64,000 bases of DNA from the NCBI GenBank assembly GCA_012295275.1, contig CM022670.1:33046001-33110000 (forward strand), written 5' to 3'. A model generated the notes under the pieces. That model was given only the letters and a program-made list of their open reading frames with translations, made no database searches and had not been told where the DNA came from. How positions within the stretch are numbered: the stretch's first letter is position 1; the number at the start of each line of letters is the position of its first letter. Origin of the DNA: Chrysomallon squamiferum. Lineage: Eukaryota; Animalia; Mollusca. The translations under genes were made by a program, and so were the position numbers. Below are positions 56,496-60,785 of this stretch, one piece after another.

Positions 56496-57509
56496 TTATT
56501 AGATTCATTTTGCAAACTAAAAATAAATATATAAATATTAGTTTCAATAAAACACAGGTTAAATTTATTAGTTATATCCTTAAAGATTTTGAACTATCTA
56601 TCACAAGTGGAAAATCTCTTAAAGTGTTACATAGTCATTAATACTAAGAGTATTTTTTATTATTATTATTATTTAGTGGTATTTTAAAATATATTATAAA
56701 ATAAAAATGAAAACCTTTACGTTGAGCTATAACAAAACAATAAAAAAAAAAAATAATAATAATAAAATAACAATAAAATTATAAAAAATATATTAATTAA
56801 AAAAAAAAGTGATAGCATTGGTGTCATATTTCAATTTATCACCACATTCTTTCTTTATTCATTATTATATAATTATTATTATTATTTTTATTATTATTAT
56901 TATTAATTAATTAATTAATTTATTATTTACTTACTTATTTTTATGTTCATCTTAAATTTTATTTTATTTAACCTTTTATTTTATTAATTTGTTTAAAAAC
57001 AAAAATCTTAAAATAAATATAAAGCAGTGATGAGAGAGAGAGAGAGAGAGAGAGAGAGAGAGAGAGAGAGAGAGAGAGAGAGAGAGAGAGAGAGAGAGAG
57101 AGAGAGAGAGAGAGAGAGAGAGAGAGAGAGAGAGAGTTATTTTCGTTATATGTTGCAGGCAGAGATGCAGGCAGTGACTGTTCTGGAGGAAGGTCGTTCT
57201 CAGTGATTACAGTATATTGTTATAAAATATTTTCATCATAGAACTGTAAAGTTCCAAAAGTGTAAGAAAGGATATTTTCATATTATTTCATTCACATATT
57301 TTATACAAATGGATATTTTTTTTTCCATATTAAACAAAGCTATCGTAATAAAATTAAATCTTATTCTGAAGAGACGACTATTCACGTTAAAACTCATACT
57401 AAAACAAATGACAAAACAATTGAAAATATTTTATATAGAAAATTTATTTCCTAACAAGAAATTAAGAATCACTAAATAGTATTTAGTAAAGGCTTTACAA
57501 GAGATAAAG

Positions 57510-59527
57510 CTAAGTGTATCTGATAGACATGTAGACTCTGCTGTTGTACTCATCTGCTGAAAAACGTAGGTAGAGTGGAGAAGATGAATCACTAAGATCA
57601 TACTTTAGAGTATTTTGACTTGAGGCGACGTATGGGCCATCCATCTCGGTTCCTAGTTCGATATTTATTGGCTTTCTGTATACACTTATGGCTTTGATGG
57701 TGACAGACGTTTTAGTGGTTGGAGGGTCAAGGAGAAACATTGGATTTTGTTCAGCGGACACAATCAGACGACGTATTGTGGTTCCATCTTTCAGGGTTTC
57801 CATGAAAGTGTCTTCTTGACATTTCTCCATTTTTATACCTACGACAGCAAAGGCTGTTTTAATTTCGGTTAAGTAAGAATTGTAGCCAAGGTCGTGGGCA
57901 GATCTCAGGACACCGCAGGCGCCTTCTTCAAAATTTGATCTTTCCTTCCAGTATATCTGATTAGCCTGGATGAAACAATGGTAGGCTTCCTTCATGGGCA
58001 TATTTTGAATCTGGACCAGCTGATAAAAAGCGTGATTGAAAAGACCGCTGCTGTGATGTACGTTCAGTCCTGACCTGTATTTTGTGATGTGTTTTATGGA
58101 TCGTCCGTCTTTAGTTGGGTCCTCAAAATATCTCAGGGCTTTCTTTGGGTCTTTGCGGAGTTCAAAACCTACATACCAGTCATTAGAGAGAGCATAGGCT
58201 TCGACAAGTTCTCCAGTGATGTCAGAGAAAGCTTCGTTGATTCCTCCAGACTGACCAGAGTAGAAGAGATTGGAAAATCTTGTTGTGATTCCATGTCCAA
58301 GTTCGTGCGCAACTACATCAAGACTTACAAGAGGATAGAAGAAATTCTTACCATCTCCAAATGTCAGACTTTTGCCATCCCAAAAAGCATTTTCATATTG
58401 TTTCCCATAATGAACGTACATGATTGGCTTGAATCCTAAAGGATTAATTTTGTACCATTCTTTGATTGCTTGTACTGTTGTGTAGCCAAAGTAAAATGCA
58501 TCCATCACAGGAGAAAATGCTCCGTTAATTTCATCGCTATAACCTTTACTGCAGGTAAAATTTGCGGCAGGACTTCTGTTTGATCTTGTGCGAGACTGTT
58601 TCAGATCTATTACCTTAACATGTTCTGTTTCAAGAATACAAAGGTTTCTTTTAACAGTGGGATTAATGCATCTGGGTGGAACTCCATAATTGTATTTTCC
58701 CGTTTTCAGATTCCCTCCTACTCCTTTGGCTGGAGACGTACATTTCACTTCTGGTGGTGATGTTGTCGTTTTAGAGTTTTCATCGCAGTCTTTGTCGGGA
58801 ACCGGTTTTGGGGTAGGTGGTGTTGGTGTTGTTGTAGGTGATGTTGGTGTTGTTGGTGGTGTTGTAGTCGTTGTTGGTGGTGATGTAGTCGTTGTTTTTG
58901 GATCGCAGTTCTCCTGAGCTTCCAGCGCTCTTAAGAAGTTATTCATATTCGAGGTCATGTTATTTACCCTATCAAACTTCATAAAGATGGTTAAGTCACA
59001 GGCATCAATGATGTAAAATGGCCGACTGACAGCGGTCTCGGTTACATACAGGAATTCAACCTCATACACCCATACTGCGTCATGATCGTTTTTCAAGTAA
59101 ATCTTTCGCTTACACTTCTCCTCTGAAACGCTGATATCCTTGGACGATAGACCAGAGTCCATTAATGCTACCTCGAGTATCGTTTCATTGGACTGGATGC
59201 ACGACGTTCTGTTCTTAATGTCACTTTCTATTCCAATGATGATTTCTCCGCTTACTATTCCTGTGTATCCAGAATGTGGGTCCATGTCAGCCTCTACACC
59301 AAATCCAATAACATCGTAACCTAAATATGTTTCCTTCATCTTCTTCTTATAGCGTCCTTGAGCTGTCCTCACCATCTCTACGGAAGACAGTCGCTCGCCA
59401 GTAGACAAATGTAGCAGTTTTCCCATGTTATATCTGTTCCATTTTGGGGTAGCCCCATTCTGAAGAGTCGCCGAAAGTCTGTCTGAGGCGTCGTATTTTG
59501 TGCATCCTTCGGCGAGTTCACTGACAA
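57510..59527 (-). CDS. M4 family zinc metalloprotease (vibriolysin/elastase-like preproprotein), main coding exon, copy 1
   Basis: GGNLKTGKYNYG, INGAFSP..DAFYFG, VHYGKQYENAFWDG, FYPLVSLDVVAHELGHG (HExxH at 58293-58307), GGINEAFSD, NVHHSSG; PepSY-like propeptide; phase-1 acceptor TTTTAG|; AATAAA at 57448-57443. Confidence 0.95.
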
Positions 59528-59813
59528 CTAAAATGCAAAAAAGCAATAATAATAATAATACATACATACATACATGTAGTTTTTTTCCCAAATGTACATA
59601 TACACATATGCACATTTGTGAAAAAAAAGTATAAATCAAAGTACAAAGATCGAAATAAAATAATAAAGATGAAGACGAAGAAGATGAAGAAATGAAAAAA
59701 AGAAAACAAAAAAGTTATTTTGATACGTCATATTTATCGGTATATATATACTCATATTTGTATGTGTTTTGACTCATATTTGTATGTGTGTGTATATATA
59801 TATATATATATAT

Positions 59814-59899
59814 AGAGAGAGAGAGAGAGAGAGAGAGAGAGAGAGAGAGAGAGAGAGAGAGAGAGAGAGAGAGAGAGAGAGAGAGAGAGAGAGAGAGAG
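59814..59899. repeat. (GA)n microsatellite in the M4 gene intron
   Basis: Pure dinucleotide run preceded by (TA)n. Confidence 0.95.
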
Positions 59900-59929
59900 T
59901 ATATGTGCCAAGTGGTACTTCTGACTTAC

Positions 59930-59969
59930 CTAAGAAAAACGCCAGAATCTTTATCATGGTGAGGTACAT
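59930..59969 (-). CDS. M4 protease copy 1, first coding exon (signal peptide start)
   Basis: MYLTMIKILAFFL then G|GTAAGT donor, phase 1; splicing gives MYLTMIKILAFFLVVSELAEG-C, a plausible signal peptide; total 685 aa. Confidence 0.85.
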
Positions 59970-60664
59970 GTTGTATCCAGACTTCTAATCCTGATGGATC
60001 GAATTTTAGATTCTGAAAATAATGAATTTATTTTATTTTAAATCGTATTTGTTTTAGATTATAATTATACATACATGTATACATACATATATTCATTTCA
60101 TTTGGCTTTAATTACGGACACTAAAATAAGGGATATCATACACTAAAATTGTATTGTTTTGATTTGAAAAACGGAAATGTTTTTCTAACTTCAGATTAAT
60201 CAAAACTGTTTTAGGAAATAATTATGTATATAATCTGTTATGTTTGCATTTTATAATGCTTGCGGTATCAAACTATAATTTTATAATTTCCTATAAGTAG
60301 GAATACTCTGAAATATCAATAAAATTGCTTAATTTGTGCAATCCAAAACTTAGACCGAGGCAATATCTTTCAATTATTTTAAAATCATACAATATTCTTG
60401 ATATTATTTTTCAACTCTTATTTGTATGTGTTTTGACTAAGAAAATGCCTACTCATGGGTTTATTAAAATGTTTAATTTAGCTTCCAAATTTTCCCGAAT
60501 GCAGTTTTTGAAAATAATTACTTAAAATATTTAATAATTTAGGCATCTTTTATTTTCGAACGTATTCAAATACTTTAAAGATATTTCCTTTGGATCGTTT
60601 AAAAAATAATAATAATAAGATAAAGTAAAGTAAAATGAAGCAAATATAAAAATAACACACATAC

Positions 60665-60785
60665 CTGTGACGATATTTGTTTCAAGTTTTCTTTCTTTTT
60701 CTCTGTGTGTGTTGGTGAACTATGCAGCAGTAGGCCAGGAAATGATTCTCTGTCTTTCCTTGTGATAAATGGGACTATATATACC
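60665..60785 (-). promoter_or_regulatory. Candidate TATA promoter and non-coding first exon of the M4 gene
   Basis: TATATATAG near 60783-60775, donor CAG|GTATGT at 60665/60664, matching acceptor TTTTCAG| before 60012. Confidence 0.5.

What the first reader, a model, noticed from the sequence alone, without database searches (positions are those of the whole stretch)
57443..60785. Bacterial-type M4 metalloprotease domesticated in an animal genome
Seen: a complete prepro-M4 architecture (signal peptide, propeptide with PepSY-like segment, catalytic domain with HELGH and NEAFSD, C-terminal extension). Its motifs closely follow Vibrio vibriolysin/haemagglutinin-protease and Pseudomonas LasB. All but the first 13 codons lie in one 2-kb exon, with GT-AG introns only in the signal peptide and probable 5' UTR, plus AATAAA and host-type microsatellites. 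It sits next to bona fide animal genes. Established: M4 is a mainly bacterial family, absent from vertebrates and standard model animals. Inference: horizontal acquisition from a gammaproteobacterium, with a host promoter and secretion exon, giving a secreted digestive, matrix-remodelling, defensive or venom-like protease. M4-like genes are annotated in some marine invertebrates, so the transfer may be old rather than unique.
Basis: partly seen in the sequence, partly recalled or inferred. Interest (0 to 1): 0.85.

Follow-up and report, generated by a model that had tools for sequence, protein, structure and literature searches.

The report
Old bacterial-type protease gene in mollusc
This is an intact host gene, likely of a snail, for a predicted secreted zinc protease of a bacterial type that molluscs likely took from bacteria long ago; the transfer was already reported from octopus, so this is a new member of a known family.

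Summary
A 685-codon spliced M4 (vibriolysin-type) frame has all catalytic residues and lies beside animal DAO and Syd-1 RhoGAP genes. A near-identical second copy starts 6.1 kb away and is cut off by the window edge.

It is not a one-off. The best hits are mollusc proteins, and the family spans gastropods, a bivalve, a cephalopod and a chiton as one clade (100/99). The window sits in a gastropod subclade. A recent transfer from Vibrio is rejected (AU p=7e-5).

Bacterial origin is likely but not proven. The trees cannot tell nested-in-bacteria from sister-to-bacteria (AU p=0.51), so the gammaproteobacterial donor is not shown. Liu et al. 2018 (PMC6011040) already called seven octopus zinc metalloproteinases horizontally acquired, and their amplicons carry M4 motifs.

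Additions here: the C-terminal extension is a diverged PPC domain; a Thr/Pro-rich linker lengthens the pro/mature junction; many gastropod relatives have furin-like sites there, but this protein has none; unnamed eukaryote-like records join the mollusc clade, so the gain may predate molluscs.

Splicing, expression and activity are untested.

The parts
57510..59527 (-). Main coding exon (2,018 nt): end of signal peptide, propeptide, linker, catalytic domain, PPC-like domain, stop
59528..59929 (-). 402-nt phase-1 GT-AG intron in the signal peptide, with (CT)n(AT)n microsatellite; predicted, no spliced reads
59930..59969 (-). ATG and first 13 codons + 1 nt, hydrophobic core of the predicted signal peptide; the exon probably starts at 60012
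60013..60664 (-). Probable 5' UTR intron (GT-AG), inferred from sequence only
60665..60783 (-). Probable first non-coding exon and TATA-like element (60783-60775); untested
   Evidence: direct reading
58911..59504 (-). Propeptide, fold of the MCP-02 vibriolysin propeptide
   Evidence: 3nqy_A E 1.4e-7; 3nqz_A TM-target 0.80
58758..58895 (-). Thr/Pro-rich linker between propeptide and catalytic domain, predicted disordered (pLDDT<50), possibly O-glycosylated
57828..58736 (-). M4 catalytic domain: H407, E408, H411, E431, D435, R465, H490 (P0001 numbering) all present
   Evidence: Z 43.6, rmsd 1.2 A over 298 residues to 3nqx
57513..57812 (-). C-terminal beta-sandwich, diverged PPC (pre-peptidase C-terminal) domain
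   Evidence: HHalign 93.9%, E 1.6e-7, 98 columns; reversed control 1.8%; 5sv5, TM-target 0.65, E 3.7e-3
57443..57448 (-). AATAAA, predicted polyadenylation signal
62770..64000 (-). 3' end of a second, tandem M4 copy (coding 63607-63999, open at the window edge) with its 3' flank; offset 6,097 bp

Best explanation
An intact host gene, likely of a gastropod, encodes a predicted secreted vibriolysin-type (M4) zinc endopeptidase whose family was likely acquired once from bacteria at or before the mollusc ancestor and has since been inherited and duplicated. Shown: the open spliced frame, the full pre-pro-catalytic-PPC architecture, the catalytic residues, animal neighbours, a place inside a mollusc clade, and a second copy. 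Inferred mechanism: the signal peptide routes the zymogen into the secretory pathway. The propeptide folds and inhibits the enzyme until cleavage in or next to the exposed Thr/Pro linker. There is no furin-type RxxR site, so cleavage would be by autoprocessing or another protease. The mature enzyme would cut before bulky hydrophobic residues by the thermolysin mechanism (Zn on H407/H411/E431, E408 as base; recalled family knowledge), with the PPC-like domain holding it on insoluble protein. Most likely role: extracellular digestion of food protein or mucus in the gut or digestive gland (about 0.45 among roles). Matrix remodelling or defence is about 0.35, other roles about 0.2.
For: Mollusc proteins are the top named hits: Haliotis 45-46% over more than 90% of the length, then Babylonia, Aplysia, Elysia, ahead of bacteria. 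Named members also come from Gigantopelta, Nucella, Patella, Physella, Lymnaea, Liolophura (chiton) and Argonauta. Catalytic-domain tree of 44 rows: molluscs 100/99; the vibriolysin-type group (animals + bacteria) is split from thermolysin and Streptomyces types at 100/100. Propeptide + catalytic tree of 42 rows, unrooted: the window sits with Haliotis, Babylonia and Aplysia at 100/99, and all 22 bacterial-side rows lie on one side at 100/99. Window + Vibrio/Veronia is rejected (p-AU 7e-5). Purifying selection: 13 of 16 coding differences to run X1's contigs are synonymous. Codon use correlates with host exons (r 0.52) more than with any of 8 bacterial M4 genes (-0.23 to 0.34). The AF2 model has pLDDT 90 and matches MCP-02. 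Octopus members were amplified from hepatopancreas cDNA (PMC6011040, whole text read).
Against: The direction of transfer is not proven. Trees with all vibriolysin-type bacteria as one clade (p-AU 0.51) or with molluscs next to the outgroup (p-AU 0.34) are not rejected. Non-animal eukaryotic M4s were not sampled on purpose, so the test for vertical descent is incomplete. Ultrafast bootstraps had not fully settled, and the model was LG+G4 without a mixture. The octopus expression data cover one tissue only, and by resemblance to the Argonauta protein likely concern the other paralogue lineage, so the digestive role is a weak inference.
Confidence: 0.75

Rival explanations
1. The gene is an ancient eukaryotic or early-animal gene kept in some marine invertebrates and lost elsewhere, or animals were the donor to marine bacteria; there was no bacteria-to-mollusc transfer.
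For: The root inside the vibriolysin-type group is unresolved. Unnamed eukaryote-like records form several deep branches beside the molluscs.
Against: The whole bacterial architecture including the PPC domain is shared. The vibriolysin type is a subgroup of a far larger bacterial family. The only named eukaryotes in the three named-hit lists of 120 and in the 30 proteins looked up are molluscs, plus one arthropod record flagged as contamination. Almost the entire coding region is intronless. Many independent losses would be needed.
Confidence: 0.15
2. Several independent transfers from related marine bacteria gave the mollusc family and the other eukaryote-like groups separately; only the mollusc clade is a single event.
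For: In the 44-row catalytic-domain tree the e3/e4/e5 groups are unresolved among bacteria. These records are unnamed, so their animal nature is not shown.
Against: With the propeptide added, molluscs and all 10 eukaryote-like rows split from all 22 bacterial-side rows at 100/99. The constrained single-clade tree scored 3.4 log-likelihood units better than the free one (p-AU 0.57).
Confidence: 0.2
3. Bacterial contamination or a chimeric assembly, or a recent species-specific insertion.
For: The coding region is nearly intronless; no whole genome or long reads were available.
Against: The protein is 81% identical over the catalytic domain to a record from other assemblies and 59-60% to Haliotis, against 52% at best for a bacterial-side record. 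It has a spliceosomal-type intron and microsatellite-rich, 29% GC surroundings, unlike 80 of 80 metagenome M4 loci, which are gene-dense and have no microsatellites. A short-read contig of run X1 runs from the coding sequence into the AT-rich 3' flank (X1 may be the source sample). Recent transfer from Vibrio is rejected.
Confidence: 0.02

Closest known systems
Octopus bimaculoides ZnMP1-7 (Liu et al. 2018, Data Brief PMC6011040; companion Gene paper PMID 29738840 not held)
   Same: Zinc metalloproteinases in a mollusc genome, called horizontally acquired from bacteria and expressed. The printed amplicons, read by eye, show the M4 motifs HELAH and NEAFSD and resemble the Argonauta protein P0134 of the mollusc clade found here.
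   Different: The window belongs to a gastropod subclade with a long Thr/Pro linker; the cephalopod, chiton, bivalve and limpet proteins form the short-junction lineage. The placement of the octopus sequences themselves was not computed.
RefSeq mollusc 'hemagglutinin/proteinase-like', 'neutral protease-like', 'elastase-like' proteins (Haliotis, Babylonia, Aplysia)
   Same: Same subfamily, full-length alignment, same domain order, Thr/Pro linker and diverged PPC domain.
   Different: 36-46% identity. Many carry an RX[KR]R or RR site at the pro/linker boundary, which the window protein and its nearest relative P0002 lack.
Vibriolysin MCP-02 (Pseudoalteromonas), Vibrio HA/protease, Pseudomonas LasB, Legionella ProA (MEROPS M4, vibriolysin type)
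   Same: Catalytic domain 42-47% identical, rmsd 1.1-1.8 A; propeptide fold; PPC-like tail as in vibriolysins; all zinc and catalytic residues.
   Different: Nuclear intron-containing gene. The pro/mature junction is 96 residues against 22-26 in 33 of 34 bacterial-side rows. 13 cysteines against 6-7 in three bacterial proteins checked. The PPC domain has diverged beyond Pfam detection.

Membership tests
Peptidase family M4 (thermolysin family) | HExxH zinc motif plus third ligand Glu in the GxxNEAFSD motif about 20 residues downstream | tested here: met
   H407, E408, H411, E431 invariant in 53 of 53 aligned rows
Peptidase family M4 (thermolysin family) | Pfam Peptidase_M4 and Peptidase_M4_C above the gathering cut-off; thermolysin fold | tested here: met
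   94.2 and 108.8 bits against cut-offs 22.4 and 24.4; Z 36-44 to thermolysin and vibriolysins
Peptidase family M4 (thermolysin family) | Zinc-dependent endopeptidase activity | not testable with these tools
   needs an assay
Vibriolysin/LasB-type M4 subgroup | Groups with vibriolysins apart from thermolysin and Streptomyces types | tested here: met
   100/100
Vibriolysin/LasB-type M4 subgroup | FTP + PepSY propeptide | tested here: met
   No Pfam hit, but sequence E 1.4e-7 and fold TM-target 0.80 to the MCP-02 propeptide
Vibriolysin/LasB-type M4 subgroup | C-terminal PPC domain | tested here: met
   HHalign of 33 mollusc-side tails against bacterial PPC tails: 93.9%, E 1.6e-7; Foldseek 5sv5; no Pfam hit and no BLAST match for the single sequence
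Vibriolysin/LasB-type M4 subgroup | Short pro/mature junction used for autoprocessing | tested here: not met
   96 residues with a Thr/Pro insert against 22-26; autoprocessing itself untested
Molluscan horizontally acquired Zn-metalloproteinases (Liu et al. 2018) | Falls in the mollusc M4 clade that includes cephalopod members | tested here: met
   Clade with Argonauta, Liolophura, Ruditapes, Patella at 100/99; the paper's own sequences were compared by eye only
Molluscan horizontally acquired Zn-metalloproteinases (Liu et al. 2018) | Nested within bacterial homologues | tested here: inconclusive
   Nested in the quick tree; unresolved in the careful tree; sister position not rejected, p-AU 0.51
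Molluscan horizontally acquired Zn-metalloproteinases (Liu et al. 2018) | Transcribed and spliced by the host | not testable with these tools
   no usable RNA run of this organism

The most novel reading that the evidence does not exclude
One capture of a complete vibriolysin gene happened well before molluscs, in a deeper animal ancestor. The unnamed eukaryote-like records that join the mollusc clade are other invertebrate phyla, which makes M4 a widespread, overlooked animal protease family. In gastropods its activation was then rewired: a furin-type site plus a mucin-like linker replaced the bacterial junction, and the window's lineage lost that site again.
Probability: 0.4. Interest if true: 0.55.

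Novelty: new member of a known kind. Interest (0 to 1): 0.3.

Why it matters
As a single gene it matters little: it is one more annotated-type member of a mollusc family whose bacterial origin has been proposed in print. The family is of moderate interest. It is a likely example of a secreted bacterial protease type, a virulence factor in Vibrio and Pseudomonas, kept and expanded by animals since the mollusc classes split. No function for any animal member turned up in the ten paper searches. Its true phylogenetic breadth and its changed activation site are open, testable questions.

Tried and rejected
No whole genome is held, so the full second copy, copy number and synteny could not be read.

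Expression: no RNA holder was listed. RNA contigs of X2-X4 matched only about 30-45 nt of the low-complexity Thr/Pro stretch. This is no evidence either way.

The 80 best loci of 543 were all bacterial-like and gave no intron comparison. The genome scan gave 8 bacterial loci at 42-45%.

The Atlas search with a Haliotis homologue returned only bacterial clusters; it covers only clusters of 50 or more members. The Atlas did not hold the window protein or P0158.

Naming the non-mollusc eukaryote-like groups failed: no source names.

The 79-row careful tree did not finish; 44- and 42-row subsets were used. The first junction count mis-cut several rows and was replaced by the alignment-based count. 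The idea that all animal members are furin-activated was rejected: 9 of 41 covered mollusc-side rows have RX[KR]R, 5 more have RxxR, and the window has none.

Three look-ups of earlier findings returned nothing.

Of ten paper searches, only one search found prior work on this family. Passages searched in PMC8079154 and PMC3681718 were not relevant. The companion Gene paper is not held. The figures of PMC6011040 are not held and its supplements were not opened; they may already show the wider taxon range.

Full report
1. Observation. The minus strand carries one long exon, 59527..57510, open to a TAG stop. A 40-nt coding piece at 59969..59930 joins it in phase 1 across a 402-nt GT-AG intron, giving 685 residues without internal stops and a hydrophobic N-terminus. 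Pfam finds Peptidase_M4 and Peptidase_M4_C far above cut-off, but neither FTP, PepSY nor PPC. The zinc and catalytic residues H407, E408, H411, E431, D435, R465 and H490 (numbering of the exon-2 translation; add 14 for the full protein) are invariant in a 53-row alignment. AATAAA lies 62 nt after the stop. A probable UTR intron (60664..60013) and a TATA-like element are read from sequence only. Neighbours are a multi-exon DAO-family oxidase and a PDZ-C2-RhoGAP (Syd-1 type) gene. The surroundings are 29% GC with 619 nt of microsatellite in 11 kb.

A second copy, not in the finding, occupies 62770..64000 and runs off the window. 388 of 393 coding nt are identical (3 synonymous, 2 non-synonymous changes), and the match including the 3' flank is 89.5% over 1,269 nt. 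This is close to allele-level divergence, so a duplicated haplotype is not excluded. However, the nearest relative also has two near-identical members on contigs of equal length in each of two assemblies, which favours a real tandem pair.

2. Anatomy. The AlphaFold2 model from an 88-row alignment has pLDDT 90, and only residues 211-256 are disordered. The catalytic domain matches vibriolysin MCP-02 (rmsd 1.1-1.2 A, Z 43.6), LasB and ProA better than thermolysin (Z 36). The N-terminal part matches the MCP-02 propeptide. The C-terminal 100 residues are a diverged PPC domain: profile-profile probability 93.9%, E 1.6e-7 over 98 columns, against 1.8% for a reversed control, plus a Foldseek match to a collagenase PPC domain. 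So the whole vibriolysin architecture is present. The main change is at the pro/mature junction: 96 residues, mostly Thr/Pro, against 22-26 in 33 of 34 bacterial-side rows. Of 41 covered mollusc-side rows (6 partial rows dropped), 9 have RX[KR]R and 5 more RxxR there. None of the 34 bacterial-side rows has either, nor does the window protein. Many of those 34 rows are unnamed and are treated as bacterial from tree position or domain content.

3. Relatives and origin. The best hit is an unnamed ENA protein (65%), then Haliotis (45-46%), Babylonia, Aplysia and Elysia, ahead of Aeromonas, Shewanella and others. Look-ups of 30 proteins add Gigantopelta, Nucella, Patella, Physella, Lymnaea, the chiton Liolophura and the cephalopod Argonauta; Ruditapes comes. 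FastTree on 189 non-redundant catalytic domains puts the window in a 40-row clade (support 99) that holds all labelled molluscs. IQ-TREE (LG+G4) on a hand-picked 44-row subset with 6 outgroup rows gives molluscs 100/99 and the vibriolysin-type group 100/100, with its base unresolved. Adding the propeptide (42 rows, 489 columns, unrooted) splits molluscs into a short-junction lineage (chiton, cephalopod, bivalve, limpet; 99/97) and a gastropod lineage holding the window (100/99). Molluscs plus 10 unnamed eukaryote-like rows separate from all 22 bacterial-side rows at 100/99. The host is therefore likely a gastropod (inference).

AU tests: window with Vibrio/Veronia rejected (p 7e-5); molluscs plus eukaryote-like rows as one clade not rejected (p 0.57); molluscs next to the outgroup not rejected (p 0.34); bacteria as one clade not rejected (p 0.51). 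A recent or species-specific transfer is therefore ruled out. An old bacterial origin is the simplest reading of a patchy animal range inside a large bacterial family. Nesting and donor are not shown.

The eukaryote-like rows are unnamed. Several lie as multiple paralogues on contigs of 0.2-7 Mb (five clusters share a 1,190,152-bp contig length), which suggests animal genomes. One bacterial MAG also held 14 M4 genes, so this is not proof.

4. Is it working? Contigs of run X1 cover 57200-59534 and differ at 16 coding positions, 13 of them synonymous, which fits purifying selection. X1 may be the source sample or a merge of paralogues. Codon use follows host exons (r 0.52 on 963 host codons) more than any of 8 bacterial M4 genes. 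Splicing and expression were not testable.

5. Prior work. Liu et al. 2018 (PMC6011040; whole main text read; figures not held, supplements not opened) report seven Octopus bimaculoides zinc metalloproteinases nested within bacterial homologues and amplified from hepatopancreas cDNA. The paper does not use the name M4, but its printed amplicons, read by eye, encode HELAH and NEAFSD motifs. That the companion Gene paper places the transfer in the mollusc ancestor is recalled; it could not be opened. The other nine searches (listings only) showed no study of function, of the gastropod linker lineage or of members outside molluscs. The library lacks most subscription journals.

6. Mechanism and verdict. 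The protein is most likely a secreted zymogen, activated by cleavage at the exposed linker region and acting as a thermolysin-like endopeptidase held on insoluble substrates by its PPC-like tail (family knowledge, recalled). Gut or digestive-gland proteolysis is the favoured but weakly supported role. Venom is unlikely given grazing relatives. New member of a known kind; interest 0.3.

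Noticed in passing
window 62770-64000 (-): Second, near-identical tandem copy of the M4 gene, cut by the window edge; more copies may follow.
   Followed up: partly
window 55866-56183 (+): 105-codon open frame in a more GC-rich patch between the oxidase and the M4 gene, with an HVRW (PP1-docking-like, recalled) motif; no Pfam hit. 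Could be an exon of a small gene divergent from the oxidase.
   Followed up: no
window 48927-54083 (-): Multi-exon D-amino-acid/D-aspartate oxidase-family gene; three exons hit Pfam DAO.
   Followed up: partly
window 28790-39900 (+): Syd-1/RhoGAP100F-type gene (PDZ, C2_SYDE, RhoGAP), followed by a long AT-rich stretch that may be its 3' UTR.
   Followed up: partly
proteins P0002, P0266, P0139, P0202, P0057: Their predicted N-termini look like translated intron ends running into the signal peptide, hinting at a signal-peptide intron shared across the animal-like clade; no DNA was available to test this.
   Followed up: no
proteins P0012, P0013, P0126: Haliotis and unnamed M4 paralogues with 300-400-residue Thr/Glu-rich tandem repeats at the pro/mature junction.
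   Followed up: no
G003 (loci L009, L012, L014-L025): A MAG labelled Phenylobacterium holds 14 M4 genes of two types, with GC3 0.47 in the one checked; the label or binning may be wrong.
   Followed up: no
window 14672-15449: Degenerate tandem repeat giving long pseudo-ORFs on the minus strand.
   Followed up: no
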